A DNA stretch of 64,000 nt from a virus. The position numbers and the translations under genes were made by a program. This document shows positions 45,258-63,498 of the stretch, piece by piece. The stretch spans positions 10,466 through 74,465 of IMG/VR virus record IMGVR_UViG_3300010430_000022. One strand, written 5' to 3'. The notes beneath the pieces are model-generated. The model saw only the letters and a program-made list of their open reading frames with translations. It searched no databases and was not told where the DNA came from. How positions within the stretch are numbered: position 1 is the stretch's first letter; every line of letters starts with the position of its first letter.

Positions 45258-45290
45258 GGTCACTGACCAGAGGGTCATCTAACTTCAAGG

Positions 45291-50642: not shown

Positions 50643-50930
50643 CTATCCCTTATGCCCCGATCCTGGCAGCTTGGCACGTTTCACTACGCGGCCCTTGATC
50701 TTCGACTTCAACTGTCGCCTCTTCTCGGGTGGAACGAAGATCAACTTTCCCTTACGGAAGATGTATTGGGGATGCTTCTTCGACCACCTTTTCCGCTCCT
50801 GTTGCCAGAGCCATTTAGCTGCTCGCTTAGCCCCAAAGGTGGCAGAGGGCCGTTTCTTGGACATCCGCTCCTTCGACGATTGGCGACGGACCTGTAGTGC
50901 CTCGCACAGAAGTGGTGTCCGGGTAAGCAT
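50643..50930 (-). CDS. Small very basic protein with LTRTPLLCE N-terminus
   Basis: MLTRTPLLCEA; TAGACT 6 nt upstream. Confidence 0.6.
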   Translation of the reverse strand: MLTRTPLLCEALQVRRQSSKERMSKKRPSATFGAKRAAKWLWQQERKRWSKKHPQYIFRKGKLIFVPPEKRRQLKSKIKGRVVKRAKLPGSGHKG

Positions 50931-50992
50931 GGACCCAGTCTACCTAACTACTTAGGTGCCAGCGACCATGTCTTTCGGCTAGAATCGGGAGG

Positions 50993-52786: not shown

Positions 52787-54529
52787 ATGGCTAACAAGGC
52801 AGTTTTCGGTAGCGCACAGCGTGGCCGCAAGGTCCCCGAGACCGACACCAAGAACAAGGCCGGTGGCGTCGCGTACGCATTCGGTCCCCAGCACGCCCTG
52901 GCGCAGCTTGCCTGCACCGGAACCTTCAACGACACGTTCTACGGCAAGGCCGTCGACCAACTGGAGGGCATCCGCAAGGCCGCCGACCAGTGCTCGCCGG
53001 AGTTCATCGCTAAGTGTGCCGTCTACGCCCGTGAGCGTGGCTACATGAAGGACATGCCGGCCGCTCTGGCCGTCATCCTGTCCAAGGCCGATCCGGTTCT
53101 GTTGGACAAGGTCTTCGACCGGACCATCGACAACGGCAAGCAACTTCGGAACTTCGTCCAGTTCATCCGTTCGGGCGCCTTCGGGCGTAAGAGCTTCGGC
53201 TCCGGCCCGAAGCGGCTGATCGCACGCTGGTTCAACCAGCGCTCGGACGAGGCGATCTTCCGCGCTTCCGTCGGGAACTCCCCGTCGCTCGGTGACGTCC
53301 TCAAGCTGGCTCGCGTTTCGGGTAAGGCCGTTTCGCCACAGCGTCGTGCTCTCTACGGTTACCTGATCGGTTGTCGCGCTGCGGCTCTTGGTGAGGAACT
53401 GGAGCAGGTCACCAAGACCGAGGACGGCAAGACTCGTCGCACCAACCGCTTCAATCCAGCCGATCTCCCTGAGATCGTCAAGGGCTACGAGGCGTGGAAG
53501 CGCGGCGAGCGGACCGGCGAGGTCCCGAACGTCGACTTCCGGATGCTGACCGGCCTCCCGCTCACGCGTGAGGACTGGGTGCAGATCGCGAAGCGTGGTC
53601 GCTGGCACCAGACTCGGATGAACCTGAACACCTATGCTCGTCATGGCGTGTTCGAGATCACCGGCATGGAGGCAGTGATCGCCGGCAAGCTGAAGGATGA
53701 GGACCAGATCCGCAAGGCGAAGGTCTTCCCCTACCAGCTTCTCGCGGCCTACCTGAACACGGGTCCGGAGAACACCACTCCTGGCTACGGTGGCTACGGC
53801 TGGCGGCGTGCTCAGGTGACGGCGAAGCCTCAGGTCACGGTCCCCCAGAGGGTCCGCCTGGCGCTTCAGGACGCGCTGGAAGTCGCAACCGAGAACGTTC
53901 CTGCCTACGATGGCCGCGTTGCGGTCGTTGTGGACACGTCGGGCTCGATGCAGTCTTCGGTCACTGGTATTCGTCAGGGTGCTACCTCGAAGGTCACCTG
54001 TGTGGACGTTGCGGCCCTCGTGGCAGCGACGGTCATGCGGAAGAACCCTCTCGCGGTCGTCGTCCCAGTCGACACCCAGGTTCACCGGTCAGACATGCTG
54101 AACCCTCGGGACAGCATCATGACCAACGCGGACAAGCTCCGTCGCCTCGGCGGCGGTGGGACGGACCTCGGTGCCGCCATGCGGTTCATCGAGACCTCCA
54201 AGGCCGCGCCAGACCTCATCATCATGGTGAGTGACAACGAGTCGTGGTTCAACCCAGGTGGCGCGCGTCGCTACTACCAGGGGACGTCGGTGCAAGAGTC
54301 GTGGCAGCGGATCCGTTCGCGGAACCCCAACGCCAAGATGGTCTGCATCGACATCCAGGTTACGCAGAACACGCAAGCGCTCGACGGACACGGTGTCATG
54401 AACATCGGTGGGTTCTCAGACACGATCTGGAACACCATTTCACGGTTCGTCTCGAACGAGGGTCCCGAGACCTGGGTCGAAGAGATCAACTCTGTTGATC
54501 TCGACGCGCCCAAGCGGGTCAGGGGCTAG
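52787..54529 (+). CDS. rsr: Ro60/Rsr TROVE-domain RNA-binding protein with vWA domain
   Basis: AGGAGGT RBS; 'N.AGG.AY', 'TGTFNDTFY', 'MKDMPA', 'RMNLNT..RHG', 'FPYQL', vWA 'DTSGSM', 'GGGTD', 'SDNESW', 'IGGFSD'. Confidence 0.93.
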   Translation: MANKAVFGSAQRGRKVPETDTKNKAGGVAYAFGPQHALAQLACTGTFNDTFYGKAVDQLEGIRKAADQCSPEFIAKCAVYARERGYMKDMPAALAVILSKADPVLLDKVFDRTIDNGKQLRNFVQFIRSGAFGRKSFGSGPKRLIARWFNQRSDEAIFRASVGNSPSLGDVLKLARVSGKAVSPQRRALYGYLIGCRAAALGEELEQVTKTEDGKTRRTNRFNPADLPEIVKGYEAWKRGERTGEVPNVDFRMLTGLPLTREDWVQIAKRGRWHQTRMNLNTYARHGVFEITGMEAVIAGKLKDEDQIRKAKVFPYQLLAAYLNTGPENTTPGYGGYGWRRAQVTAKPQVTVPQRVRLALQDALEVATENVPAYDGRVAVVVDTSGSMQSSVTGIRQGATSKVTCVDVAALVAATVMRKNPLAVVVPVDTQVHRSDMLNPRDSIMTNADKLRRLGGGGTDLGAAMRFIETSKAAPDLIIMVSDNESWFNPGGARRYYQGTSVQESWQRIRSRNPNAKMVCIDIQVTQNTQALDGHGVMNIGGFSDTIWNTISRFVSNEGPETWVEEINSVDLDAPKRVRG

Positions 54530-54540
54530 CTAGAACAAGT

Positions 54541-54576
54541 AAGAGGCGGGGATCAGGTGACTGGTCTCCGCCTCTT
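54541..54576 (+). terminator. Stem-loop after rsr
   Basis: AAGAGGCGGGGATCAG...CTGGTCTCCGCCTCTT. Confidence 0.6.
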
Positions 54577-54591
54577 GCGTTTGAGGTATGT

Positions 54592-54774
54592 ATGCGGAAG
54601 AAGAACTATAAGCTGTTGGCAGAGCGGGCGATCCGCCTCAGCTATCATCATCCGATACCCGTCAAGTGCCCCTCCTGTGGTGCGCTGGGACGGCACGCTG
54701 ATAAGGAGACGCTCTGGTGCATTCTCTGCGCCGAAGCCCTTGAGGCGCTCCAGAAACCAAACACAGGGGCCTGA
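54592..54774 (+). CDS. Small Zn-finger protein
   Basis: GAGG RBS; CPSC...CILC. Confidence 0.45.
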   Translation: MRKKNYKLLAERAIRLSYHHPIPVKCPSCGALGRHADKETLWCILCAEALEALQKPNTGA

Positions 54775-54840
54775 ATGCCTGTTGGTGCTACTTCTTATGC
54801 AAAGAAACCACCTCAGCATCGACGATTCTCGTCAGGCCCT
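54766..54840 (+). ncRNA. Y-RNA-like element A (minimal)
   Basis: GGGCCTGAATGC...TACTTC...TTCTCGTCAGGCCC with paired ends. Confidence 0.65.
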
Positions 54841-55022
54841 CTTTTCTCTCGCACACAGCCGCACGCGACTGGTATGAGAGACTGAGGCACCTAGCCTCAC
54901 CGCTTCTTTGACAATTCGCTTGCCTTCTAACGAAGCAGGGTCCCCTAGAGATTCGCACTTGTGCGGTCTCTGAGATGGGGGCAAAAGGCCGGGTGGGAGT
55001 CCCGGGTCCTGCTACTAACGAA

Positions 55023-55160
55023 GGTCCCAAATGCCTGTAGGAAGTACATCCACTCCAACAACGTGGACGTAGCTCAATTGGCAGAGCGCCGGGTTAATAG
55101 CCCGGAGGATGTGGGTTCGAATCCCACCGTCAAATTCTTTCTGCGCTACTCGTTGGGGCC
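55023..55160 (+). ncRNA. Y-RNA-like element B containing a near-complete tRNA module (AAT loop)
   Basis: GGTCCCAAATGCC..TACATC [tRNA-like] ..CTACTCGTTGGGGCC. Confidence 0.75.
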
Positions 55161-55171
55161 TATTACACAAA

Positions 55172-55280
55172 CGTTTGAAGGGAGTTGCTGGGGTAGGTAG
55201 AGCCTATCTTTCGATGTTGAGTTTCAAGGACTCCGGTCCCTCTTCTGTCGGCCCCAGCCGCTCCCTGATCTCTTCTAAAC
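55172..55280 (+). ncRNA. Unassigned long-hairpin RNA
   Basis: GTTTGAAG/CTTCTAAAC and GGAGTTGCTGGGG/CCCCAGCCGCTCC pairing; lies between two Y-like RNAs. Confidence 0.4.
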
Positions 55281-55284
55281 AAAC

Positions 55285-55410
55285 GATCCGAATGCTTGTT
55301 GGGGATTACATCAACCATACGAGCGGGGCAGTAGTTGTCGCACGCCGAAAGGCGTGAGTGGGAGCATCACCCACCCGGTAAAACTTCTCTCTGGCGCTAC
55401 TCGTCGGATC
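55285..55410 (+). ncRNA. Y-RNA-like element C (tRNA-like module, GNRA-capped anticodon arm)
   Basis: GATCCGAATGC..TACATC..CACGCC-GAAA-GGCGTG..CTACTCGTCGGATC. Confidence 0.75.
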
Positions 55411-55420
55411 ACTCATCTAA

Positions 55421-55835
55421 GGGGACGACATGGCTTCGACTGGCTGTGGAAATCTCAAGTGCGTGTCGAGGTTGATCGAATGGCCTCGTTAAAAGTCGAT
55501 CACAACGCTAACTGCCAACGCAACTAGCACCCCAGAGTGGCTCTCGGACGATGCCCTCGCCAGCTTCATGGCTGACGTGGACGCGCCCGTGGCCGCACTC
55601 GTCTAGCACGAGACTCTCTCGACCTGATCCCCCGCCCATGGGGTGACGTGTTCGAGCCACAAGATGGGCTTTAGCCGGACCTGATCCTCGTCGGGAAAGG
55701 CCAAGAACAAACAGAGGAAGCCGAGTTCCCATCATTGCTCACCACAAGGGGACGGGTACATAACCGGGTGAGATACACACGTAGATCTTGAGCCAGAAGT
55801 AGTTCAGGACCCGAGTTCGATTCTCGGCGTCTCCA
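55421..55835 (+). ncRNA. ssrA: tmRNA
   Basis: 5' GGGGACGAC..GGCTTCGAC; 3' GAGTTCGATTCTC..CGTCTCCA with G3:U; pk1-like region, TAACT then tag ORF 55514-55606. Confidence 0.93.
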
Positions 55836-55892
55836 AAGCCGCTAAACAGGGAGCGGTTCCCGGCTTGCCATAGCCGGGGAGAATCCCTGCTT

Positions 55893-56028
55893 GAAGAAGG
55901 ACAACACTCCAGCACATCACGGTCTTCAACCGGTTGTCGACGCTTGCTGGGTGTGCCTGCCGGTTGCAGGCGACCCGCCTCGAACGGGTCGTGGTCCCCC
56001 ACGCGAGGTTCGATTCCTCCCTTCTTCG
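55893..56028 (+). ncRNA. 8/4-fold tRNA-like RNA with an extra arm
   Basis: GAAGAAGG/CCTTCTTC acceptor; GAGG-TTCGATT-CCTC T arm; anticodon arm with TCG loop. Confidence 0.55.
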
Positions 56029-56080
56029 TGTTGGTTGTGTACAGACCAACGTGGGCGTCTGGGTAGCTCCCAGATGTCAA

Positions 56081-56141
56081 GAAAGAGTGCTGTGGTGGCA
56101 GGCGCGCAAGCGTCGTGAGGTTCGACTCCTCGACTCTTCCT
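56081..56141 (+). ncRNA. Mini tRNA mimic without an anticodon
   Basis: AAGAGT/ACTCTT stem; GGCGC-GCAA-GCGTC; GAGG-TTCGACT-CCTC. Confidence 0.5.
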
Positions 56142-56176
56142 CTCTAGAGAATGCCAGGCACCAGCATTGAAGGGCC

Positions 56177-56273
56177 ACCGGCGAGACCAGACGTCGCCTT
56201 GATTGGGCTGCCTCCTCCCCCTTGGCCGCCCTCCGGAAATCGAGGAGCGCGGGTGCGACTCCCGTCGCCGGCA
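56177..56273 (+). ncRNA. Degenerate tRNA-like RNA
   Basis: CCGGCG/CGCCGG stem; T arm GCGGG-TGCGACT-CCCGT; irregular middle. Confidence 0.3.
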
Positions 56274-56308
56274 TCAAACACGTCGCCTCACGTTGGTATA
56301 ACCAGCGC

Positions 56309-56890
56309 GTGGGGAGACCGATCCAAAGCGAGTTCAAGTGTGAGTTCTGTCGCAAGCCCGTCGTGGCCACAGGCGGGAGACAACGCACCTGCTTAGGGAA
56401 ATCCTGCAAGCTCAAGCTCCGCAGCAAACGTCGCAAGAAGAAGCGACGCGTCGAGCGCAAAGAGTCGCCCAAGACATGCGTCTGGTGTCTTGGTCCAATT
56501 ACATCGATAGGCAAGCGAAAGTATCACCCTGAGTGTCGAGCAGAGAAGAACCGCGAGCGTGTTCGTCTCTACCATGCGACGCACGAGCCAAACTCCGATC
56601 CGGAGCCGCGCACGTTCAAGACATTCGTGACTTGTGTGATCTGCAAGAAGCGCGAGCGACGATCTGGGGCTCGGCAAGTGACCTGCTCCAACGACGTCTG
56701 CAAGCGCGCGAGAGCGCAGCAGAACAAGAAGCGTCGCCGAGAGATGGCGAAGCACATGGAAACGCTTCGAGAGGCTCTACGAGAGAAGAAAGAAGCGGCG
56801 TTCCACGCCTATAAGGGACCGAAGCGAGACGTTCGTGCAGGTCTCGTCATTGAGGCACACGACCGCTTGATCCATCGAATCACGCATTAG
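56309..56890 (+). CDS. Basic multi-Zn-finger protein
   Basis: Three CxxC...C/H..C modules; TGGTATAAC promoter-like element 6 nt before GTG. Confidence 0.65.
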   Translation: MGRPIQSEFKCEFCRKPVVATGGRQRTCLGKSCKLKLRSKRRKKKRRVERKESPKTCVWCLGPITSIGKRKYHPECRAEKNRERVRLYHATHEPNSDPEPRTFKTFVTCVICKKRERRSGARQVTCSNDVCKRARAQQNKKRRREMAKHMETLREALREKKEAAFHAYKGPKRDVRAGLVIEAHDRLIHRITH

Positions 56891-56904
56891 CCAAAGGAGA
56901 GGTT

Positions 56905-57426
56905 ATGGCAGCGTTGTCCAAGGAAGAACGAGAAACCCGCGTCAAGTGCATGAAGCGCTTCGGCATCTGGCTCAAGGGGCAGGGCAAGACCCAACGTTGG
57001 GCCGGCGAGACCCTCGGGATCTATCACGGCTACGTGAGCAACCTCATCACCGGCAAGCAAGTGGCTAGTGAGGAGGTCTGTCGAGGCGCCGACAAGCTGA
57101 TGGGCCCAAAGAAGAAGGCGAAGCGGAAGACCAAGAAGCCGGCGGAGAGTCCCATTGAGACCCTTCTTGTGATGAAGACCTGTCGGACCTGCGATCAGTG
57201 GGTCAAGAAGTCGCATCGTTGTGAGAGGCCGAAGCAGCCCGCGGGGCGTCCCAAGCGAGCGGTCGAGCGGAACAGATACATCGCTCGCCGCGCGCCGACC
57301 GTGGTCGAGATCGAGGCTGCCTGCGCCGTGGTGGTATCCTGGATCAGGAACATGCCGCCAGAAGAAGTAACACCGGACGATGTTGTCCACGTCACTAGGG
57401 GGCTGATAGCTGGATTCACCAGCTAG
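56905..57426 (+). CDS. XRE-like HTH DNA-binding protein
   Basis: AAGGAGAGG RBS; 'KTQRWAGETLGIYHGYVSNLITGK'. Confidence 0.7.
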   Translation: MAALSKEERETRVKCMKRFGIWLKGQGKTQRWAGETLGIYHGYVSNLITGKQVASEEVCRGADKLMGPKKKAKRKTKKPAESPIETLLVMKTCRTCDQWVKKSHRCERPKQPAGRPKRAVERNRYIARRAPTVVEIEAACAVVVSWIRNMPPEEVTPDDVVHVTRGLIAGFTS

Positions 57427-57485
57427 AGAAAGAGAGGGCTATCACCAAGAACTCGACGCGAAAGACCTGGCCAGATCCGACTGAG

Positions 57486-57701
57486 TTGAGCGACAAGCGC
57501 TGCAAGCGCTGCGAACAGCCGCTCAAACTCAAGCACCTCCTTCGAGCGAAGGAGAATCACCACCGCCCTCCAGACTTCTGCTACCCCTGTCTCCGTCAGA
57601 CACAGGGGAAGAAGACGTCGCGAGAGCGAAAGATCGAGCTAGCGAAGAAGCGTGCTCGGGAACGTGAGGCCCTCAAGAAGGGTCTAGGTGGTGCCGGCTA
57701 G
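57486..57701 (+). CDS. Small Zn-finger basic protein
   Basis: CKRC...CYPC. Confidence 0.5.
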   Translation: MSDKRCKRCEQPLKLKHLLRAKENHHRPPDFCYPCLRQTQGKKTSRERKIELAKKRAREREALKKGLGGAG

Positions 57702-57752
57702 CTGACGCCACCAATATGGGTCGCGTAGGTAAGAGCCTCCTCGATCCAACCT

Positions 57753-57818
57753 GCCGCTACTCTAGAGAACACTGGCTTTGTACGCTTCGTGTTGAGGGTG
57801 CAAATCCCTTTGGCGGCT
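57753..57818 (+). pseudogene. Degenerate tRNA-Thr(TGT)-like
   Basis: GCCGCTA/TGGCGGC acceptor; GAGGG-TGCAAAT-CCCTT; weak D and anticodon arms. Confidence 0.4.
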
Positions 57819-57882
57819 TTCGCTCTGCTATCCACGGACTTTGGTTGGTGTTAGACTGGCTAGATAGCCCAGGAGACGTCGC

Positions 57883-58233
57883 ATGGCACTCTACACCGCA
57901 CAAACGCTTCTCGTCCTCGAAGGTCTCTATGGCGTCGACTATGTCGACCGTATCCTCGATGAGGGGCTCAGTGATATGGCTCGCAAAGCGAAGCGTGCGC
58001 TAGGCACGAGAGCCGGGGCGGCTCTCGCAACTGGCGCACTCGCACTGGGCAGTGCAGGCGCCATCGGTGGTGGAACGGCTATCAGCTACAAGCGCCACAA
58101 GGATCAACAGGCAGACAACAGAAGGGCTCAGGAGATACAGAAGTCTGGACGCGCTGCTCTGAAGCGAGACAAACGGGCAGGCCAGCAGCGTCTTCGTGAT
58201 CTAGGCTACGTCGTCGACGCGCCGAGACGGTAG
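57883..58233 (+). CDS. Putative internal protein with propeptide and hydrophobic segment
   Basis: AGGAG RBS; MALYTAQTLLVLEG resembles the CCA enzyme N-terminus MYQAHTLLILED. Confidence 0.6.
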   Translation: MALYTAQTLLVLEGLYGVDYVDRILDEGLSDMARKAKRALGTRAGAALATGALALGSAGAIGGGTAISYKRHKDQQADNRRAQEIQKSGRAALKRDKRAGQQRLRDLGYVVDAPRR

Positions 58234-58531
58234 TGCGAGTTACGCAATTTTGAGCATGCGACTAGACATTGCCACATCGTGGCGCTACGCTTAGTTTCCA
58301 GTAGGAGCGACATCTTCAGTGACGTCAACCACCCACATTCAACCCGAACGCTTGCAGCGCCTATCCGGCGCTCGCGGTCAGGGTTCGTCTGTGGAGGGTC
58401 TGCTCCACTCCTTTGGCCGCATTGCCGAATCCAAGCCGATGGATACCTGCGCGTATCCCCGACTTGGATGGTCGGCGAATACGCACAGGCGTTCGCGGCT
58501 CTAGAGGAACCTCACAACAGGAACTTCAAGA

Positions 58532-58569
58532 AAGCCGCAGCGCCAACGCGCTCGCGGCTTCTTTCGTTT
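58532..58569 (+). terminator. Terminator/attenuator upstream of the tRNA array
   Basis: AAGCCGC-AGCGC-CAAC-GCGCT-C-GCGGCTT followed by CTTTCGTTT. Confidence 0.65.
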
Positions 58570-58687
58570 GCATAACTCTACTCAGGACACGAAGAAAGGA
58601 AAAAAACGACGACAGTGACAGGCCGGTGAGGCTTCCTTGTATATGGGGGCAGATCACAACTGACACAGGAGTGAACGAAACACATAA

Positions 58688-58768
58688 CCGTCTGGGGTCC
58701 ACCAAGTGGTGGTGCCGCGCTGTAAACGCGGTCTTTCGAGCAACGTGGTGCGATTCCACGCAGGCGGA
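58688..58768 (+). tRNA. tRNA-Tyr(GTA)
   Basis: CCGCG-CTGTAAA-CGCGG; long variable arm. Confidence 0.75.
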
Positions 58769-58776
58769 TTACACAT

Positions 58777-58844
58777 AGGTCGCGATCTAGGATCGGGCTG
58801 GATTCCAAATCCGGCCTTGCAGGGTGCGATCCCCTGGCGGCCTG
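58777..58844 (+). tRNA. tRNA-Trp(CCA), reduced D arm
   Basis: CTGGA-TTCCAAA-TCCGG. Confidence 0.7.
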
Positions 58845-58959
58845 ACTGAAAGAAGATGAGCCTCGGCTCTACATCTCGGTGTCGAACACTCGTGTCGGCA
58901 TCTAGCCCTGTAGGACGAAGCGATTCAGACGTCACTTGCCCTTTCACAATTCGGTGCTT

Positions 58960-59042
58960 GCCAGTCTGGCGGAACAGCAGACGCGCTACTTTCAAAAGGT
59001 AGTGTCCTTCGGGGCGTCCGGGTGCAAATCCCGGGACTGGCA
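58960..59042 (+). tRNA. tRNA-Leu(CAA)
   Basis: CTACT-TTCAAAA-GGTAG; long variable arm. Confidence 0.88.
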
Positions 59043-59047
59043 TTAAC

Positions 59048-59116
59048 TCGGCTGAATGCCAGCTACGACTACATCTTCCAAATATGACATGTCGTGGCGA
59101 CTCACTCGTCAGTCGA
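59048..59116 (+). ncRNA. Y-RNA-like element D (minimal; TTCCAAA loop)
   Basis: TCGGCTGAATGCC..CTACATC..CACTCGTCAGTCGA. Confidence 0.7.
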
Positions 59117-59122
59117 ACACAC

Positions 59123-59196
59123 GCTGCCGTAGCCCAACTAGCAGAGGCGTCTGGTTCAGAACCAGAAGGTTGGAGGTGCAAATCCTCTCGGCAGCA
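59123..59196 (+). tRNA. tRNA-Leu(CAG), short variable loop
   Basis: TCTGG-TTCAGAA-CCAGA. Confidence 0.8.
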
Positions 59197-59200
59197 AAGA

Positions 59201-59272
59201 GCAGGAGGACGGTGGTGCAATTCCACCCGACTGGCGGAAGTCGGTCTGTAGTTCAGTAAGAAGAACACCTGC
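59201..59272 (+). ncRNA. Circularly permuted tRNA-like RNA
   Basis: GCAGG - T arm GGTGG-TGCAATT-CCACC - closed acceptor CGACT/AGTCG - D arm - CCTGC. Confidence 0.6.
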
Positions 59273-59276
59273 GTTT

Positions 59277-59360
59277 GCCACTGTGATGGAACTAGCAGAC
59301 ATGCCTGCCTCAGAAGCAGGTGCCTTAACGGGCGTGGGGGTGCAAATCCCTTCGGTGGCA
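59277..59360 (+). tRNA. tRNA-Leu(CAG)
   Basis: CCTGC-CTCAGAA-GCAGG; long variable arm. Confidence 0.88.
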
Positions 59361-59361
59361 T

Positions 59362-59434
59362 AGCGGAATAGAGCAGTAGTAGCTCGCGAGTTTCATAAGC
59401 TTTGAGGACGTCGGTGCGAATCCGGCTTCCGCTA
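59362..59434 (+). tRNA. tRNA-Met(CAT)
   Basis: AGCGGAA/TTCCGCT; loop TTCATAA. Confidence 0.8.
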
Positions 59435-59444
59435 AAACAACCAC

Positions 59445-59527
59445 GGTCCCGTGGTGGAACAGCAGACACGCAACATTGAGGGTGTTGTGCTCGAAAGAGC
59501 GTGCAGGTGCAAATCCTGTCGGGACCA
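59445..59527 (+). tRNA. tRNA-Leu(GAG)
   Basis: CAACA-TTGAGGG-TGTTG; long variable arm. Confidence 0.88.
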
Positions 59528-59529
59528 TC

Positions 59530-59612
59530 GACCGAATGCCAGTTGTGACTACATCAACTGAAAACTGATGCTGGGGGAACCCAGCGCTCGTCACGGCATA
59601 CACTCGTCGGTC
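59530..59612 (+). ncRNA. Y-RNA-like element E (CTGAAAA loop)
   Basis: GACCGAATGCC..CTACATC..CACTCGTCGGTC. Confidence 0.72.
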
Positions 59613-59624
59613 ACAATTCAACGA

Positions 59625-59697
59625 CGCGTCCTAGAGCAACGGTAGCTCGCGAGCCTCATAAGCTCTGAGGATTCTGGTTCGATTCCAGAGGACGCTA
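59625..59697 (+). tRNA. tRNA-Met(CAT), unpaired C1
   Basis: Loop CTCATAA; canonical GG and TTC. Confidence 0.85.
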
Positions 59698-59698
59698 T

Positions 59699-59773
59699 CG
59701 CGGAGTGGAGCAGTCAGGTAGCTCGGTGGGCTCATAACCCGCAGGTCACGAGGTTCGAATCCCGTCTCCGCTA
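59699..59773 (+). tRNA. Initiator tRNA-fMet(CAT)
   Basis: C1 mismatch; GGG/CCC anticodon stem. Confidence 0.88.
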
Positions 59774-59891
59774 TACAAGCCTGTGAAGACCACCTTGCGC
59801 AGGCAGGGGCTAATCTCACCAGTGGTGGTCACGAACGAGATTCTGGATCTGGTTTTGGTAGCCGTGCGGCTACGAGGGCGCAGATCCGCAC

Positions 59892-59962
59892 GGGGCCCTG
59901 GTGAAACAGGATCACACTTGTCTGGCAGACAAGAGTTAGGGGTGCGACTCCCCTGGGCTCCA
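59892..59962 (+). tRNA. tRNA-Ala(GGC)
   Basis: G3:U70; CTTGT-CTGGCAG-ACAAG. Confidence 0.88.
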
Positions 59963-59967
59963 TACAC

Positions 59968-60039
59968 GCTCCTGTAGCTTAGGCAGCAGAGCACATCCTT
60001 GGTACGGATGAGACCCCAGTGCAAGTCTGGGCAGGAGCT
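59968..60039 (+). tRNA. tRNA-Thr(GGT)
   Basis: CATCC-TTGGTAC-GGATG. Confidence 0.85.
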
Positions 60040-60106
60040 TGGGTCGGCCTCTAGGATCATGGGGCATGTCAAGGGGGTCAATGCCACCCCCGACCAGAAC
60101 ACACAT

Positions 60107-60179
60107 AGCGTGTGGGCCATACGAGTGCGGCACACCTTTCATACGGGTGAGATACCGGGTGCAAGTCCCGGACACGCTA
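60107..60179 (+). tRNA. tRNA with CAT anticodon (Met or Ile2)
   Basis: CACCT-TTCATAC-GGGTG. Confidence 0.75.
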
Positions 60180-60211
60180 TCAGACGAACCGGTTGATCGC
60201 CGGGGAGTCGG

Positions 60212-60317
60212 TGAGGATTAGTGGACTAACAACTACGTCGAAGCTGGACGCGGTAGGTCGGTTGACTCTGAATCAGCAGGTGCGGGTGAGGGCGGCAGCC
60301 CAATGCCCGCCCCTCAT
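60212..60317 (+). ncRNA. tRNA-Gln(CTG)-like RNA with D-arm and T-loop insertions
   Basis: GTTGA-CTCTGAA-TCAGC; T stem GCGGG/CCCGC enclosing an extra hairpin; TGAGG/CCTCA. Confidence 0.5.
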
Positions 60318-60318
60318 T

Positions 60319-60391
60319 GGATCCGAAGCTAAACGAGTGAAGCACCCGGTTCTTACCCGGGGGATACAGAGTGCAATTCTCTGCGGATCCA
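60319..60391 (+). tRNA. tRNA-Lys(CTT)
   Basis: CCCGG-TTCTTAC-CCGGG. Confidence 0.85.
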
Positions 60392-60406
60392 TCAGTTGAA
60401 CTATCT

Positions 60407-60479
60407 GGATCGGTAGCTCAGCCAGTAGAGCACGAGTCTGAAGAACTCGGAGTCGGGGGTGCAAATCCCTCCCGGTCCA
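60407..60479 (+). tRNA. tRNA-Phe(GAA)
   Basis: CGAGT-CTGAAGA-ACTCG. Confidence 0.88.
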
Positions 60480-60482
60480 TAC

Positions 60483-60555
60483 CAGGGATTAGTGTTTAAC
60501 AGCAGCACGAGGCATTTGGGATGCTTTAGTCGAGGTGCAACTCCTCGATCCCTGA
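60483..60555 (+). tRNA. tRNA-Pro(TGG)
   Basis: AGGCA-TTTGGGA-TGCTT. Confidence 0.85.
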
Positions 60556-60559
60556 TTAA

Positions 60560-60633
60560 CGGAGCGTGGCGCAGTCTAGTAGCGCGCTGGTCTGGGGGAC
60601 CAGAGGTCGCAGGTGCAAATCCTGTCGCTCCGA
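60560..60633 (+). tRNA. tRNA-Pro(GGG)
   Basis: CTGGT-CTGGGGG-ACCAG. Confidence 0.9.
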
Positions 60634-60689
60634 TTGGAACGCGAGCGGTCAGCCGAGGTGCTGATCGGCCCTAGTGGCTTCCAACGCAA

Positions 60690-60760
60690 GGATTCGTGGT
60701 GTAACAGAAGCATAGGACCCTGAAAAGGTCGCGGCAGGGGTGCAAATCCCTTCGAATCCA
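60690..60760 (+). tRNA. tRNA-Phe(GAA), second copy
   Basis: GACC-CTGAAAA-GGTC. Confidence 0.8.
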
Positions 60761-60890
60761 TTCGTCGAATGCCAGGTAGGACTACATCATTTGGTTCGAG
60801 TCCAATCTGCTCCTTCGGGAGTTAGCCCCGTGGCGGGGACATCGACCTCACGGTCGGTGGATTGATCGTCCGCCAACTCTCGTCGACGAA
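60761..60890 (+). ncRNA. Y-RNA-like element F (YrlA-type permuted tRNA module)
   Basis: TTCGTCGAATGCC..CTACATC; T arm TTGG-TTCGAGT-CCAA; TTCG-closed stem; D-like arm; ..CTCTCGTCGACGAA. Confidence 0.78.
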
Positions 60891-60893
60891 CAC

Positions 60894-60965
60894 CGGTCTA
60901 TGGTGAAACAGTTATCACGCGTCTCTGATAAGGACGAGTTCTAGGTGCGATTCCTGGTAGACCGA
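60894..60965 (+). tRNA. tRNA-Ile(GAT)
   Basis: CGTCT-CTGATAA-GGACG. Confidence 0.85.
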
Positions 60966-60969
60966 TTTT

Positions 60970-61043
60970 GGCCATGTAGCTCAGATAGTCAGAGTACCGC
61001 CCTGTCACGGCGGGGGTCGGGGGTGCGAAACCCCTCATGGTCG
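60970..61043 (+). tRNA. tRNA-Asp(GTC)
   Basis: CCGCC-CTGTCAC-GGCGG; G73. Confidence 0.88.
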
Positions 61044-61044
61044 T

Positions 61045-61098
61045 CGGGTGAATACGAAAGTGGTGAGAGCCCACGCAGGTGAGATCCCTGCCATCCGT
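61045..61098 (+). ncRNA. Truncated tRNA-like RNA
   Basis: CGGGTG/CATCCG stem plus GCAGG-TGAGATC-CCTGC T-like arm. Confidence 0.35.
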
Positions 61099-61102
61099 TT
61101 AT

Positions 61103-61175
61103 GGTCCTGGAGTTCGTGTAGCAGAATAGCCGCCTGTCGAGCGGAAGGTTGTGGGTGCAACTCCCATCAGGACCG
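61103..61175 (+). tRNA. tRNA-Asp(GTC), second copy
   Basis: CCGC-CTGTCGA-GCGG; G73. Confidence 0.8.
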
Positions 61176-61242
61176 TTTGGAAGCCCAGACCGGGCTAGTC
61201 TTTCTGGCTGGAACAGCCAGCCCCAAGACCGGTGAGGGAACC

Positions 61243-62082
61243 ATGGGAACGCTAGAAGAGGCCGCGAAGGTAATCGAGGAGGCAGACGCTCTCCTCATAA
61301 CGACCGGCGCAGGAATGGGAGTCGACTCAGGACTCCCCGACTTCAGAGGGAGCCAAGGCTTTTGGAAGGCTTATCCGCCCTACAAGAAGCTGAACGTGTC
61401 CTTCTCCGAAATGGCGAGCCCGGATTGGTTCAAGAAGGACCCTGAGTTCGCTTGGGGCTTCTACGGCCAGAGACGCAACCTCTACCGGGTGACGGAGCCG
61501 CACAACGGCTACGCGATCCTCAAGAGGTGGGCCGAGGAGAAGCCGAAGGGCTACTTCGCGGTCACGTCGAACGTCGACAACGCCTTCCAGAAGGCCGGCT
61601 TTGACGCGTCTCGAATCGCTGAGGTGCATGGGACCATCGAATGGAATCAGTGCATGACCTTCTGCGGCGCCAGGATCACTCCGGCAGGCCCAGAGGAGAT
61701 TGAGGTCGACACAGGGACAATGAGGGCCTCAGGGGCCCTACCAACGTGTCCTGGCTGCGGTGAGGTCACGAGGCCGAACATCATGATGTTCGGGGACCCC
61801 TACTTCGACAAGAAGCGTCAGGAGGAGCAACTCGAACGCTTCTACGCGTGGCTCAAGGAACTCAAGACAGGCGAGGCCGACCTCGTCGTAGTCGAGTGTG
61901 GAGCCGGGGTTGAGATCCCGACGATCAGAGACATCTCCGACCAGATCGGAATCGACGAATGTGGAGGAACCCTGGTGAGGGTGAACCCAGTCCACTCCCG
62001 AGCGCGGTGGGGCAGTCATGTCAGCCTGCACTTCGGGGCGCTTGAAGCCTTGGAAGGGATCGAGCAAGTGATCGCAGTTTGA
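61243..62082 (+). CDS. Sir2-family (sirtuin) NAD-dependent enzyme
   Basis: 'GAGMGVDSGLPDFRG', 'TSNVD', 'EVHG', Cys pairs, 'RPNIMMFGD', 'ECGAG..IPTIR', 'RVNP'. Confidence 0.92.
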   Translation: MGTLEEAAKVIEEADALLITTGAGMGVDSGLPDFRGSQGFWKAYPPYKKLNVSFSEMASPDWFKKDPEFAWGFYGQRRNLYRVTEPHNGYAILKRWAEEKPKGYFAVTSNVDNAFQKAGFDASRIAEVHGTIEWNQCMTFCGARITPAGPEEIEVDTGTMRASGALPTCPGCGEVTRPNIMMFGDPYFDKKRQEEQLERFYAWLKELKTGEADLVVVECGAGVEIPTIRDISDQIGIDECGGTLVRVNPVHSRARWGSHVSLHFGALEALEGIEQVIAV

Positions 62083-62149
62083 ACACACGCGGGTTAGCCC
62101 CGCATGAAGGTCTCTTCGCCGCCCTCGGGAGGCGTTGAGACTGAGCATT

Positions 62150-62223
62150 GGCCCTATCGTCTAGTCTAGTTAGGACGTCAGCCTCTCAAGCTGAAAACCC
62201 GGGTGCGAATCCCGGTAGGGTCA
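62150..62223 (+). tRNA. tRNA-Glu(CTC)
   Basis: TCAGC-CTCTCAA-GCTGA. Confidence 0.9.
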
Positions 62224-62231
62224 TCAGTTTT

Positions 62232-62303
62232 CCCTCTATAGCTTATGAAGTAGAGTTCCCGCCTGTCACGCGGAGGAACCGAGTGCAAGTCTCGGTAGAG
62301 GGG
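62232..62303 (+). tRNA. tRNA-Asp(GTC), third copy
   Basis: CCGC-CTGTCAC-GCGG. Confidence 0.8.
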
Positions 62304-62339
62304 TCTTGTGGGGAAGGGGTGAAAGCCCTGACCCTGCTT

Positions 62340-62411
62340 GCAGGTGTAGCTCAGTAGTAGAGCGTCACGTTGCCAACGTGAGGGCCGTCGGTGCGAATCC
62401 GATCACCTGCT
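62340..62411 (+). tRNA. tRNA-Gly(GCC)
   Basis: TCACG-TTGCCAA-CGTGA; U73. Confidence 0.9.
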
Positions 62412-62415
62412 TCAC

Positions 62416-62488
62416 GCGGTCGTAGTGTTTAACAGCAGCACGCGAGCTTGCCATGCTCGAAGTTGGGGTGCAACTCCCCACGACCGCT
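62416..62488 (+). tRNA. tRNA-Gly(GCC), second copy
   Basis: CGAGC-TTGCCAT-GCTCG. Confidence 0.88.
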
Positions 62489-62491
62489 TCT

Positions 62492-62563
62492 GCTTCCATA
62501 GTGTCAACAGCAGCACGACTGTTTCGTAATCAGTTAGTCTCGGTGCAACTCCGGGTGGAAGCT
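62492..62563 (+). tRNA. tRNA-Thr(CGT)
   Basis: ACTG(T)-TTCGTAA-(T)CAGT. Confidence 0.82.
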
Positions 62564-62693
62564 TTCAGCGAATGCTTTGGTAGGAGTACATCCTGACTGA
62601 TAATCAAGACGACTCGGGCGCAACTCCCGGGGCCCCCACTACGAGGGGGTGCGTAGTGCTAGTAAACCCTCTTGCCTACTACTCGTCGCTGAA
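62564..62693 (+). ncRNA. Y-RNA-like element G (permuted tRNA-Ile(GAT)-like module)
   Basis: TTCAGCGAATGC..TACATC; TGA-CTGATAA-TCA; T arm; GCCCCC/GGGGGT closed acceptor; ..CTACTCGTCGCTGAA. Confidence 0.78.
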
Positions 62694-62697
62694 CCAA

Positions 62698-62769
62698 GGA
62701 CCCGAAGCATAAGCAGTGATGCACTTGGCTCTTAACCTTGGGAATGGGGTGCAAGTCCCTGCGGGTCTA
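62698..62769 (+). tRNA. tRNA-Lys(CTT), second copy
   Basis: Loop CTCTTAA; GGACCCG/CGGGTCT. Confidence 0.75.
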
Positions 62770-63498
62770 TCCAGCCTTACGCTCAGACGTGTCGATTGAC
62801 TGGATCGAGTGCTTCAGGCCGTGAAGGGCGCTGTTGTCACTGTGCTCCTTCTCCCAGGGCGCCTTGAAGGCGCCCTCCTTATCGAGGGCCTTGAACGGCG
62901 TCGGGTGATCCTTCAGGCTGTGCAGCTTTTCAGCGAAACTGTCAGCTTCCTTCTTCATGCCACCGAGGCGCTTCGCGCTCTCGTCGTCCTTCGGGAAGTG
63001 AGCCCCGCGCTTACGGATCTGATCGAGGGGAGCGTGGAAGTGGGTCACCTTCACATGGTAGCCATGCTTGGCTGCGTGGTGCAGGTAAGGCTTCATCTGC
63101 CAAGCCGCCGTGTTCGTGTTGTCCACGATGACGTGCGGGTGACCAGCAGCCATGTGCTCCGCAGCTTGCTGCTGAGCATGGGCATGAGCCTCGCCGAGCT
63201 TGCTCGGATCAAACGAGGGAGTGCCGCCGGGCTTGTCCGGAGGACCGTAGAGTCCTGGGTGCTTGTCGGCTGAGACCACAGCAGCGCCCGAGTGGTGCTT
63301 TGCGATGTGAGTCGACTTGCCTGACCCAGGTGCGGCGACCATGAAGTGAAGCACCTTCTTTTGCGCAGGCGACGGCTCGTCTGCCTCAAGGAACGGTGAG
63401 TAGACCGCCTCCTGGAGGTTTCGGACATACTTGTCCCGTCGAATGGATTCAACGAGAGGAAGGGTGCGGGAGCGACGGATACGGTCGTGAAGGTTCAT
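62767..63498 (-). CDS. P-loop polynucleotide-kinase-like protein (AAA_33 / N4BP2-like), His-rich
   Basis: 'AAPGSGKST', 'VSAD', 'FDPSKLGEAH', 'VIVDNTN..WQMKPY'. Confidence 0.85.
   Translation of the reverse strand: MNLHDRIRRSRTLPLVESIRRDKYVRNLQEAVYSPFLEADEPSPAQKKVLHFMVAAPGSGKSTHIAKHHSGAAVVSADKHPGLYGPPDKPGGTPSFDPSKLGEAHAHAQQQAAEHMAAGHPHVIVDNTNTAAWQMKPYLHHAAKHGYHVKVTHFHAPLDQIRKRGAHFPKDDESAKRLGGMKKEADSFAEKLHSLKDHPTPFKALDKEGAFKAPWEKEHSDNSALHGLKHSIQSIDTSERKAG

What the first reader, a model, noticed from the sequence alone, without database searches (positions are those of the whole stretch)
54766..62693. At least seven Y-RNA-like genes with one Ro-binding scaffold and interchangeable tRNA-mimic payloads
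Seen: seven elements (54766, 55023, 55285, 59048, 59530, 60761, 62564) share [stem]-GAATGC-[stem2]-TACATC...[stem2']-(A/T)CTCGT-[stem']. The closing stems differ in sequence yet all pair, i.e. they co-vary. Inserts range from a bare hairpin to a linear tRNA-like module (B, C) to permuted T/acceptor/D modules (F, G). They start just after the Ro60/Rsr gene and are interleaved with tRNAs. Established: bacterial Y RNAs (YrlA) lie next to Rsr, have a GNCGAA-type Ro-binding helix and a tRNA-like domain; usually only one or two are present. Inference: an expanded modular RNP system in which one Rsr is loaded with different RNA adaptors or decoys.
Basis: partly seen in the sequence, partly recalled or inferred. 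Interest (0 to 1): 0.9.

Follow-up and report, generated by a model that had tools for sequence, protein, structure and literature searches.

The report
Seven Y-RNA genes beside phage Ro60
An uncultured phage carries seven small RNA genes, scattered among its tRNA genes downstream of a Ro60 gene, that share the two-helix "handle" of bacterial Y RNAs but carry different interiors; this is an unusually large and varied example of a known RNA-protein system, not a new one.

Summary
Exactly seven elements, all on the + strand, share stem1-AAUGC-stem2-UACAUC...stem2'-CUCG-stem1'. A covariance model built only from other genomes' elements finds these seven and nothing else in the 74-kb record. Both stems co-vary strongly.

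The handle is that of YrlA/YrlB-type Y RNAs:
- It matches the Rfam YrlA consensus and the published GNCGAAN0-1G motif.
- A model built from the seven retrieves true Rfam YrlA members.
- All 226 matches in about 135 other Ro60 loci lie on the Ro60 strand.

No window element reaches Rfam's YrlA cutoff (F scores 26.8 bits against 69).

- Seven is high: the median is 2 per locus. It is not unique, because two other phage contigs and one large contig have seven or more. Earlier reports of this scan describe similar arrays of 4-10 in other phages.
- F and G broadly follow the usual YrlA order (T arm first).
- B and C are the unusual ones: tRNA-like bodies in native order, joined to the handle at the acceptor end.
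- D, E, F and G abut tRNAs within 0-11 nt, which suggests release by tRNA processing.

Ro60 binding, expression and any adaptor or decoy role remain untested.

The parts
52787..54529 (+). Ro60/Rsr-type gene (580 aa, TROVE plus Ro60 vWA domain), the presumed protein partner
   Evidence: Pfam vWA_Ro60 1.2e-10 and TROVE 1.3e-6. Distant hits to solved Rsr 2NVO, phage phiLo Ro60 9L5Y/9KOP and RO60 9NEN. 45% identical to the Myxococcus phage Mx1 TROVE protein.
54766..54841 (+). Y-A: short Y-like RNA. 9-bp stem 1, 10-bp stem 2, distal 5-bp hairpin plus ACCACCUC.
   Evidence: R1 62.3 bits. R2 45.1 bits. The handle is the MFE fold, z -3.3.
55022..55162 (+). Y-B: handle enclosing a complete tRNA-shaped module in native order (55063-55135, anticodon loop UUAAUAG, canonical D and T loops). 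The handle attaches at the acceptor end through an 18-nt 5' linker and a 2-nt 3' linker.
   Evidence: R1 77.4 and R2 47.3 bits. Rfam tRNA 56.1 bits. The ARAGORN cloverleaf has G.A mismatches at 1-72 and 3-70.
55283..55413 (+). Y-C: handle enclosing a cloverleaf-like module in native order. It has a 4-bp D-like hairpin, a 6-bp 'anticodon' stem capped by a GAAA tetraloop, and a 5-bp T-like hairpin with loop AGCAUCA. It ends 7 nt before the tmRNA.
   Evidence: R1 70.7 and R2 43.6 bits. Constrained fold. No tRNA call by ARAGORN or Rfam.
55421..55836 (+). tmRNA gene (context). Its 5' processing site would define the 3' end of Y-C.
   Evidence: Rfam tmRNA 130.4 bits. ARAGORN.
59047..59118 (+). Y-D: minimal Y-like RNA. 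The handle closes a ~21-nt loop beginning UACAUCUUCC. It lies 3-4 nt from tRNA-Leu genes on both sides.
   Evidence: R1 50.7 and R2 42.9 bits. The handle is the MFE fold, z -3.4. Feature map.
59527..59616 (+). Y-E: short Y-like RNA with one distal GC-rich hairpin (CUGGG-GGAA-CCCAG). It lies directly after tRNA-Leu(GAG) and 8 nt before tRNA-Met.
   Evidence: R1 56.1 and R2 48.6 bits. Folds. Feature map.
60760..60892 (+). Y-F: YrlA-like RNA. After the handle come a 4-bp closing stem, a T-arm with canonical loop UUCGAGU, then three more hairpins. tRNAs abut it on both sides (0-1 nt).
   Evidence: Rfam YrlA 26.8 bits, full-length alignment, below the cutoff of 69. R1 68.6 and R2 46.3 bits. Constrained fold. 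Feature map.
62563..62695 (+). Y-G: YrlA-like RNA. After the handle come a small hairpin with an anticodon-like loop CUGAUAA, a T-arm with the phage-type loop CGCAACU, a 6-bp hairpin and a 3' segment. tRNAs abut it on both sides (0-2 nt).
   Evidence: R1 61.8 and R2 46.4 bits. Constrained fold. Feature map.
58959..62769 (+). tRNA gene cluster (24 tRNAs by ARAGORN and Rfam) in which Y-D to Y-G are embedded. It is the presumed common precursor and the source of the processing sites.

Best explanation
These are seven genes for Y-RNA-like non-coding RNAs of the bacterial and phage YrlA/YrlB kind, belonging to the Ro60 gene at 52787-54529.

What the sequence shows:
- Each RNA is closed by the same two-helix handle. 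Stem 1 has 6-9 bp. It is followed by an asymmetric internal loop, 5' AAUGC(N) opposite 3' (N)nCUCG. Stem 2 has 8-10 bp, and CUACAUC follows it.
- Only the interior differs. A, D and E carry a loop or a single hairpin. F and G carry a T-arm-first multi-hairpin body. B and C carry a tRNA-shaped body in native order.

Inferred mechanism:
1. The RNAs are transcribed with the tRNA/tmRNA cluster. They are cut out by the enzymes that mature the neighbouring tRNAs: RNase P at the next tRNA or tmRNA 5' end, and tRNA 3'-end processing upstream. D, E, F and G lie 0-11 nt from tRNAs on both sides, and C lies 7 nt before the tmRNA.
2. The handle docks on the outer face of the Ro60 ring, as in solved and footprinted Ro60-Y RNA complexes.
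3. The interior decides what else the particle touches. Hairpin types would act like YrlB, Yrn2 or phiLo Yrl and tether an exonuclease such as host PNPase. tRNA-like types would present a tRNA surface to tRNA-handling proteins. In F and G the acceptor/elbow side would be exposed. In B and C the anticodon arm and elbow would be exposed.

The record also encodes RNA-end-healing enzymes and more than 25 tRNAs. I therefore favour a role in turnover or quality control of tRNA and other structured RNA during infection.

My odds:
- Y-RNA-type handle RNAs that are real genes: about 0.9.
- They bind this Ro60: about 0.75.
- Adaptor/tether role of the interiors: about 0.45.
For: Shown here:
- Seven and only seven copies are present.
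- Both helices co-vary strongly within the seven and across 140 elements. There, 92.5% of cells are paired against 37-56% when slid, 590 cells have changes on both sides, and the score is 0.72 against at most 0.11.
- The Rfam YrlA model aligns F end to end. Its consensus 'cggCgaAUGC.uuggGgaaCUAc...AaAcUuGucGccg' is the same handle.
- The consensus of R2, built from 138 non-window elements, is 'GgCGAAUGCCuGgcGGGACUACAUC...CUUGUCGcC'. It contains the published Rsr-site motif GNCGAAN0-1G.
- R1, built from the window alone, finds 226 matches in about 135 Ro60 loci. All are on the Ro60 strand and most lie within 2 kb of the gene.
- Nine of these matches in 11 loci are Rfam YrlA above its cutoff. 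For example, L014:9041-9158 scores 39.4 bits with R1 and 85.5 bits with YrlA.
- The same interleaving with tRNAs occurs in another phage contig, L091, with 35 tRNAs and 7-8 elements abutting them.
- The elements abut tRNAs or the tmRNA.
- RNA-healing genes are present: HAD_SAK_1, two 2H phosphoesterases and an AAA_33 kinase.

From the literature:
- YrlA RNAs lie within 4 kb of Ro60 on the same strand and mimic tRNA. Yrn2, tRNA-Asp and Yrn1 are made as one precursor (PMC4201824).
- Thermus phage phiLo Ro60 binds two phage Y-like RNAs and forms a complex with host PNPase (PMC12135203).
Against: - No element reaches the Rfam YrlA gathering score (best 26.8 against 69). Only F is reported at all.
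- Only F matches GNCGAAN0-1G exactly. C, E and G keep CGAAUG, A and D have UGAAUG, and B has CAAAUG.
- D to G lie 4.5-8 kb from Ro60, beyond the 4-kb criterion of Chen 2014.
- No RNA data exist for this phage, so transcripts, mature ends and Ro60 binding are unverified.
- No RNA ligase (RtcB or Rnl) and no PNPase was found in the 74-kb record. CheckV estimates the record as only 26% complete.
- R2's training set was selected with R1, so the two models are not fully independent.
Confidence: 0.75

Rival explanations
1. The identity is the same (Ro60-bound Y-like RNAs), but the tRNA-like interiors act mainly as decoys. They would soak up host tRNA-cleaving defence nucleases or other tRNA-binding factors, with Ro60 only stabilising them.
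For: - B and G display anticodon-like 7-nt loops (UUAAUAG, CUGAUAA). B and F have canonical host-type elbows, whereas 22 of 24 of the phage's own tRNAs have a rewired T-loop UGCRAnU.
- The genome carries tRNA-end healing enzymes, which fits a conflict over tRNA.
Against: - Three of the seven (A, D, E) have no tRNA-like part. C and its counterpart L091:8177-8312 cap the anticodon stem with a tetraloop, so they offer no anticodon loop to cut.
- Similar arrays sit beside Ro60 in large, apparently cellular contigs of 283-697 kb, where a phage-defence decoy role is not obvious.
Confidence: 0.2
2. The elements are not Ro60 partners. They are structured spacers of the tRNA operon (processing or stability signals) or a selfish repeat family that happens to lie near Ro60.
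For: - D to G are embedded in the tRNA cluster 4.5-8 kb from Ro60.
- No binding or expression data exist.
- No Rfam family is reached at threshold.
Against: - The same handle lies next to Ro60 genes, always on the Ro60 strand, in about 80 independent loci. Many of these have no tRNA nearby, for example L067, L013 and L023.
- The handle equals the YrlA handle, and some matches are Rfam YrlA members.
- The copies share structure but not sequence, unlike young mobile repeats.
Confidence: 0.07
3. Y-B is simply a working tRNA-Ile(AAU) gene whose leader and trailer happen to pair. It should be counted as a tRNA and not as a Y RNA.
For: Rfam tRNA scores 56.1 bits. ARAGORN calls tRNA-Ile(aat) with perfect D, anticodon and T arms.
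Against: - The flanks score as a full handle with the model built from other genomes (47.3 bits, E 6e-10).
- The acceptor stem has G.A mismatches at 1-72 and 3-70 and a U discriminator.
- The MFE fold pairs the acceptor 5' strand with the linker instead.
- From general knowledge: an A34 anticodon needs deamination, which bacteria normally apply only to tRNA-Arg(ACG).
- A second phage contig has a handle-enclosed tRNA-like body whose anticodon loop is a tetraloop.
Confidence: 0.1

Closest known systems
YrlA (Y RNA-like A; Rfam RF02553; Chen et al. 2014, PMC4201824)
   Same: - The Ro60-docking handle is the same: CGAAUGC, a 7-10-bp second helix, CUAC, and a 3' strand A-CU(U/C)G-UCG.
- It is encoded on the Ro60 strand and has a tRNA-like interior. 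F and G start the interior with a T-arm, as YrlA does.
- A model built from the window elements retrieves Rfam-positive YrlA genes.
   Different: - No window element reaches the Rfam cutoff.
- F and G lack the near-invariant YrlA D-arm.
- B and C have native tRNA order with the handle at the acceptor end, not the T-acceptor-D permuted order with the handle in place of the anticodon stem.
- D to G lie more than 4 kb from Ro60, inside a tRNA cluster.
- There are seven copies, against an average of about 1.3 reported per genome (355 in 276 genomes).
Short hairpin Y RNAs: Salmonella/M. smegmatis YrlB and D. radiodurans Yrn2 (PMC4201824)
   Same: - A, D and E are long hairpins with a small distal loop or hairpin and no tRNA-like domain. 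They accompany tRNA-like Y RNAs, as in all three characterised bacteria.
- Yrn2 is also co-transcribed with a tRNA.
   Different: - Rfam YrlB (RF02565) does not match the window.
- There are three such RNAs here and not one.
- Binding has not been tested.
Thermus phage phiLo Ro60 with Yrl1 and Yrl2 (PMC12135203)
   Same: A phage-encoded Ro60 with phage-encoded Y-like RNAs carrying a CGAA-type motif near the gene. This is experimental precedent that such RNAs bind phage Ro60 and bridge to host PNPase.
   Different: - phiLo has two RNAs, both upstream of the gene, and no tRNA-like variety is reported.
- The window's Ro60 is only distantly similar in sequence to phiLo Ro60 (E 4e-5 over ~90 residues).
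Myxococcus phage Mx1 (OR576727), the closest cultured relative
   Same: - Its Ro60 is 45% identical.
- It has two handle RNAs (45167-45297 and 45519-45627) embedded in its tRNA cluster next to a tmRNA, with T-arm-first interiors.
   Different: - It has only two copies, 11 kb upstream of Ro60, and the 3' loop reads AUUUUGU.
- Both are unannotated. One is overlapped by a 'hypothetical protein' CDS.
Handle-RNA arrays in uncultured phage contigs
   Same: They have 6-8 handle RNAs with mixed short and tRNA-like interiors beside Ro60. In L091 they are wedged between tRNA genes exactly as here, and one has a native-order tRNA-like body.
   Different: - Ro60 is only about 42% identical, and no sequence is shared outside the handle.
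- L092's copies are strictly tandem upstream of Ro60, not dispersed.

Membership tests
YrlA (Rfam RF02553) | Score at or above Rfam's gathering cutoff (69 bits) | tested here: not met
   No YrlA hit at the gathering threshold. F scores 26.8 bits, E 0.029 over 11.5 kb and 3.6e-4 locally. The other six are not reported.
YrlA (Rfam RF02553) | Ro60-binding handle: terminal helix, 5'-strand motif GNCGAAN0-1G, second helix | tested here: met
   - The F alignment to the YrlA consensus has high posterior probability over both handle strands.
- F matches the motif exactly. C, E and G keep CGAAUG. A and D (UGAAUG) and B (CAAAUG) each differ by one base.
- Both helices co-vary.
YrlA (Rfam RF02553) | tRNA-like domain in the order V, T-arm, acceptor-like hairpin, D-arm | tested here: inconclusive
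   - F and G begin with a T-arm followed by hairpins, but no D-arm consensus is found.
- B and C have the order D, anticodon, T.
- A, D and E have no such domain.
YrlA (Rfam RF02553) | Encoded within about 4 kb of Ro60 on the same strand | tested here: met
   All seven are on the Ro60 strand. A, B and C lie 0.2-0.9 kb downstream. D to G lie 4.5-8 kb downstream, outside the 4-kb criterion.
Y RNA in the functional sense | Bound and stabilised by Ro60/Rsr | not testable with these tools
   No RNA run holds this sequence. EMSA or RIP-seq is needed.
YrlB (Rfam RF02565) | Match to the Rfam model | tested here: not met
   No YrlB hit in the window at E <= 10. One weak hit (23.4 bits against 97) occurs in the jumbo-phage locus L006.
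tRNA (Rfam RF00005), for the body of Y-B | Cloverleaf at or above the cutoff, with a fully paired acceptor stem | tested here: inconclusive
   It scores 56.1 bits (cutoff 29), and the D, anticodon and T arms are perfect. Acceptor pairs 1-72 and 3-70 are G.A mismatches, and the body is enclosed by a Y handle.
Ro60/Rsr protein (for 52787-54529) | TROVE HEAT-repeat ring plus C-terminal vWA domain | tested here: met
   - Pfam vWA_Ro60 scores 42 bits (cutoff 27.7) and TROVE 28.3 bits (cutoff 23).
- Thousands of homologues carry PF05731 and PF25045.
- It hits solved Rsr and Ro60 structures.

The most novel reading that the evidence does not exclude
It is served by a family of up to 7-9 handle RNAs whose interiors are independently evolving 'display modules'. 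These include tRNA bodies mounted in at least two opposite orientations: the handle at the anticodon end in YrlA, F and G, and at the acceptor end in B, C and L091:8177. The phage would use this set to direct a single Ro60 ring to different RNA-handling partners, or to intercept different tRNA-targeting host factors, during infection.
Probability: 0.25. Interest if true: 0.8.

Novelty: new variant of a known kind. Interest (0 to 1): 0.55.

Why it matters
What bacterial Y RNAs do beyond tethering PNPase is still open, and so is the purpose of the YrlA tRNA mimic.

This phage places seven sequence-unrelated interiors on one conserved Ro60 handle, inside a tRNA operon and beside RNA-healing enzymes. 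The survey made here gives a concrete comparative data set:
- more than 200 handle RNAs beside Ro60 genes;
- a median of 2 per locus and up to 7-8;
- different interiors on the same handle in many of the arrays.

It also gives two new design variants to test: native-order tRNA bodies attached by the acceptor end, some with the anticodon loop removed.

The survey also flags systematic annotation gaps. Rfam's YrlA model recognised only 9 of the matches in the 11 loci checked. In the cultured phage Mx1, one such RNA is annotated as a protein-coding gene.

Tried and rejected
- Megablast of 54500-62800 against GenBank phages: no match.
- Rfam at gathering threshold: only tRNAs and tmRNA, no Y family.
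- MAFFT alignments of the seven misplace the 3' handle of the short elements. I used them only to seed model R1 with a hand-written structure.
- Exact-pattern scan of IMG/VR with the D/E/F 5' motif: one hit, inside a coding-looking stretch, taken as chance.
The closest Ro60 relatives (P0001-P0030, 60-90% identity, some on contigs of 36-154 kb) could not be inspected. Conservation of each paralogue in close relatives is therefore untested.
- The search for related loci reached only Ro60 genes of at most 51% identity.
- Sequencing runs: no RNA holder is listed. Read laying was not used because only DNA contigs were on offer.
- Two Y-RNA reviews (PMC10870794, PMC6047535) are not held. The statement that large arrays are undescribed rests on Chen 2014, the phiLo paper and my own knowledge.
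- R2 finds nothing in mycobacteriophage Myrna or Streptomyces phage NootNoot, whose Ro60 is only 22-24% identical. Their published YrlA RNAs presumably have a diverged handle. This does not show absence.
- A link between Y arrays and the rewired tRNA elbow is rejected. Other array-bearing loci have canonical T-loops.
- RtcB and Rnl-type ligases: none in the 74-kb record, which is only 26% complete.

Full report
**What is there**

The window is the last 64 kb of a 74,465-b IMG/VR virus record. CheckV rates the record as about 26% complete.

A 580-aa Ro60/Rsr-type protein is encoded at 52787-54529. Pfam finds a TROVE domain and the Ro60 vWA domain. The protein gives distant hits to solved Rsr, phage phiLo Ro60 and RO60 structures.

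Downstream on the same strand lie a tmRNA (55421-55836) and at least 24 tRNA genes.

Read directly from the sequence, every copy has these parts:
- a terminal helix of 6-9 bp that includes the GA of 'GAAUGC' paired with the UC after 'CUCG';
- an asymmetric internal loop, 5' AAUGC(N) opposite 3' (N)nCUCG;
- a second helix of 8-10 bp;
- then UAC-AUC (UAC-UUC in A) and a variable interior.

**Is it more than chance?**

A covariance model built from the seven (R1) scores them 50.7-77.4 bits. The next hit in 64 kb scores 11.9 bits. That test is circular, so I built a second model (R2) from 138 elements of other contigs only.

With filters off, R2 finds the same seven at 42.9-48.6 bits (E <= 8e-9). 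Nothing else scores better than E 0.2. The whole record also gives seven.

Covariation among the seven alone:
- 94.3% of cells are paired, against 19-49% when the partner column is slid.
- 13 of 15 pairs carry changes on both sides.
- The covariation score is 0.867, against at most 0.17. No shuffle out of 500 reaches the observed value.

Outside a ~22-nt 5' motif the copies share no BLAST-detectable similarity. They are old, structurally constrained paralogues and not recent repeats. Forcing the handle costs 0-5 kcal/mol relative to the free minimum-energy fold.

**What family is it?**

At its curated threshold Rfam reports no Y-RNA family in the window. At a relaxed threshold YrlA (RF02553) aligns to F end to end, at 26.8 bits against a cutoff of 69.

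That alignment is informative. The YrlA consensus 'cggCgaAUGC.uuggGgaaCUAc ... AaAcUuGucGccg' is the same handle. The penalties fall in the tRNA-like middle.

The R2 consensus is 'GgCGAAUGCCuGgcGGGACUACAUC ... CUUGUCGcC'. It contains GNCGAAN0-1G, the motif that Chen et al. 2014 assign to the Rsr-binding site.

I then collected about 135 loci that encode Ro60 relatives, from metagenome and viral contigs. I scanned them with R1, which was built from the window alone:
- 226 matches had E < 0.1 (or E < 0.01 in the last batch).
- Every match is on the Ro60 strand.
- Most lie within about 2 kb of the gene.

On 140 of these elements the two helices are 92.5% paired, against 37-56% when slid. There are 590 cells with changes on both sides. 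The covariation score is 0.72, against at most 0.11.

In 11 of these loci Rfam calls nine of the R1 matches YrlA above threshold. For example, L014:9041-9158 scores 39.4 bits with R1 and 85.5 bits with YrlA. The window's elements therefore belong to the same handle family as bona fide YrlA RNAs, although none of them would be annotated by Rfam.

**How unusual is seven?**

With R1 at E < 1e-3, the 57 metagenome loci with any hit carry these numbers of copies:

| Copies per locus | 1 | 2 | 3 | 4 | 5 | 7 |
|---|---|---|---|---|---|---|
| Metagenome loci | 16 | 23 | 13 | 3 | 1 | 1 |

The 21 viral records have 1-4 copies, except three with 7, one of which is the window. These counts are lower bounds, because many contigs are short and R1 is biased toward the window's version of the handle.

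- Chen 2014 reported 355 YrlA-like sequences in 254 bacteria and 22 phages.
- The phiLo study reported two.
- The cultured relative Mx1 has two, both unannotated, in its tRNA cluster 11 kb from Ro60.

Seven is therefore the high tail, but it is not unique:
- L092, a 91-kb viral contig, has 6-7 in strict tandem just upstream of Ro60.
- L067, a 283-kb contig, has seven ~70-nt copies downstream of Ro60.
- L091, an 82-kb viral contig, has 7-8 wedged between its 35 tRNA genes.

Earlier reports of this scan describe comparable arrays of 4-10 in other phages. They agree with what I measured, but I treat them only as leads.

**The interiors**

- A, D and E are short (72-90 nt). The handle closes a loop or one small hairpin. 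This resembles the 'long hairpin' Y RNAs (YrlB, Yrn2) that accompany YrlA in all three characterised bacteria.
- F has a 4-bp closing stem and a T-arm with the canonical loop UUCGAGU, followed by three hairpins.
- G has a small hairpin with the anticodon-like loop CUGAUAA, a T-arm with the phage-type loop CGCAACU, a 6-bp hairpin and a 3' segment.

T-arm-first is the normal YrlA order: V, T, acceptor-like hairpin, D, with the handle in place of the anticodon stem. Among the 68 long elements surveyed, wherever both a T-loop and a D-arm motif could be recognised the T-arm came first, with two exceptions.

The exceptions are the window's B and L091:8177-8310. A further element, L091:9733-9890, encloses a weak tRNA match at 9751-9813.

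- B encloses a complete cloverleaf in native order (Rfam tRNA 56.1 bits). Its D, anticodon (loop UUAAUAG) and T arms are perfect. It has G.A mismatches at acceptor pairs 1-72 and 3-70. The handle joins at the acceptor end through an 18-nt 5' linker and a 2-nt 3' linker. The linker can alternatively pair with the acceptor 5' strand.
- C has the same order, but with a short D-like hairpin, a 6-bp 'anticodon' stem capped by GAAA, and a T-like hairpin.
- L091:8177-8312 likewise caps its anticodon stem with a tetraloop.

B and C thus represent a second mounting geometry. Ro60 would sit at the acceptor end, leaving the anticodon arm and elbow free. I did not find this geometry described in Chen 2014.

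**How it most likely works**

Shown by the map:
- D lies 3-4 nt from tRNA-Leu genes on both sides.
- E follows tRNA-Leu(GAG) directly and precedes tRNA-Met by 8-11 nt.
- F and G abut tRNAs within 0-2 nt on both sides.
- C ends 7 nt before the tmRNA.
- B is preceded by an unannotated tRNA-like element.

Inferred steps:
1. The RNAs are made within the tRNA/tmRNA precursors. They are released by RNase P at the downstream 5' ends and by tRNA 3' processing upstream. The D. radiodurans precursor containing Yrn2, tRNA-Asp and Yrn1 is a precedent.
2. The handle then docks on Ro60. Precedents are Ro60-Y RNA structures and footprints, and the phiLo Ro60-Yrl2 complex.
3. The interior selects the partner. 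For hairpin types this would be host PNPase, as in the Ro60-Y RNA-PNPase complexes. For tRNA-like types it would be tRNA-handling proteins. [quoted passage not shown]

The record also encodes a HAD_SAK_1 phosphatase, two 2H phosphoesterases, an AAA_33 kinase and Sir2. No RNA ligase was found in the 74 kb. This context fits tRNA or structured-RNA quality control or turnover during infection.

A decoy role against tRNA-cleaving host nucleases is a live rival. I weigh it lower for three reasons:
- Three of the seven have no tRNA-like part.
- C has no anticodon loop.
- Similar arrays sit in large, apparently cellular contigs.

**Limits**

- No expression or binding data exist.
Conservation of each paralogue is therefore unknown.
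- R2's training set was chosen with R1.
- Copy numbers elsewhere are lower bounds.

**Verdict**

The elements are new, Rfam-invisible members of the YrlA/YrlB handle family beside a phage Ro60. The array is large and varied and includes a rare native-order tRNA mounting.

This is a new variant of a known kind. It is of real but moderate interest, mainly as comparative evidence and as a testable set of designs bearing on what Y-RNA interiors do.

Noticed in passing
window 58959-62769: 22 of 24 stand-alone tRNA genes have the T-loop UGCRAnU (G where the universal U55 sits) and D-loops without the GG pair (for example CAGCAG, AGUAGUA). Two tRNA-Met genes, the tmRNA and the tRNA-like body of Y-B keep the canonical UUCGAAU/GG elbow. 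Other Ro60 or Y-array loci have canonical T-loops, so this rewiring is specific to this phage. Another first-reader note on this genome records it as well.
   Followed up: partly
window 54934-55017, 55179-55266, 55945-56028, 56081-56140, 57716-57825, 58689-58765, 58776-58845, 59197-59275: Further structured, T-arm-bearing segments that ARAGORN and Rfam do not call at threshold. 58689-58765 looks like a tRNA with anticodon loop CUGUAAA (Tyr) and a long variable arm. 58776-58845 folds as a cloverleaf with loop UUCCAAA (Trp). 54934-55017 has an acceptor-like stem, a long hairpin and a T-arm. 55179-55266 is a 7+8-bp closed domain with z -3.0. These may be non-canonical tRNAs or another class of tRNA-like RNA.
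   Followed up: partly
L001/L002: Myxococcus phage Mx1 OR576727, 45167-45297 and 45519-45627: Two unannotated Y-like handle RNAs with T-arm-first interiors lie in the Mx1 tRNA cluster next to its tmRNA. The second is overlapped by the annotated 'hypothetical protein' WNM70101.1 (45524-45646), which is probably a mis-called ORF.
   Followed up: partly
alignment A5, stem 2 (columns 24 and 277): One position of the second handle helix is a G.U wobble in 94 of 134 elements, including four of the window's seven. The wobble is conserved as such and is not replaced by G-C. It may be a recognition feature for Ro60.
   Followed up: no
L067 11616-12303; L013, L014 and L023 arrays: A 283-kb contig has seven tandem ~70-nt short handle hairpins directly downstream of Ro60, with no tRNA nearby. 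Three related contigs show similar series of element lengths (about 67, 106, 137, 124-134 and 118 nt, the 118-nt element being Rfam YrlA). This suggests conserved, non-redundant paralogues in bacteria too.
   Followed up: partly
window 49417-52261 and 62767-63498: An RNA-end-healing gene set surrounds the locus: a tRNA-ligase-CPD-like 2H phosphoesterase (49417-49977, -), a HAD_SAK_1 phosphatase (49974-50642, -), a LigT-like 2H/DUF5661 protein (50993-52261, +) and an AAA_33 kinase (62767-63498, -). A Sir2 gene (61243-62082) sits inside the tRNA cluster. No RtcB or Rnl ligase was found in the 74-kb record.
   Followed up: partly
window 54541-54576 and 54592-54774: An inverted repeat AAGAGGCGG/CCGCCTCTT followed by GCGTTTG lies just after the Ro60 stop. 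It may be a terminator or attenuator. After it comes a 60-codon ORF with two CxxC pairs that overlaps the start of Y-A by 9 nt. Whether this ORF is real is unknown.
   Followed up: no
window 53169-53249: The ARAGORN 'tRNA-Arg(ccg)' lies inside the Ro60 coding sequence and has no Rfam tRNA hit. It is most likely a false positive.
   Followed up: no
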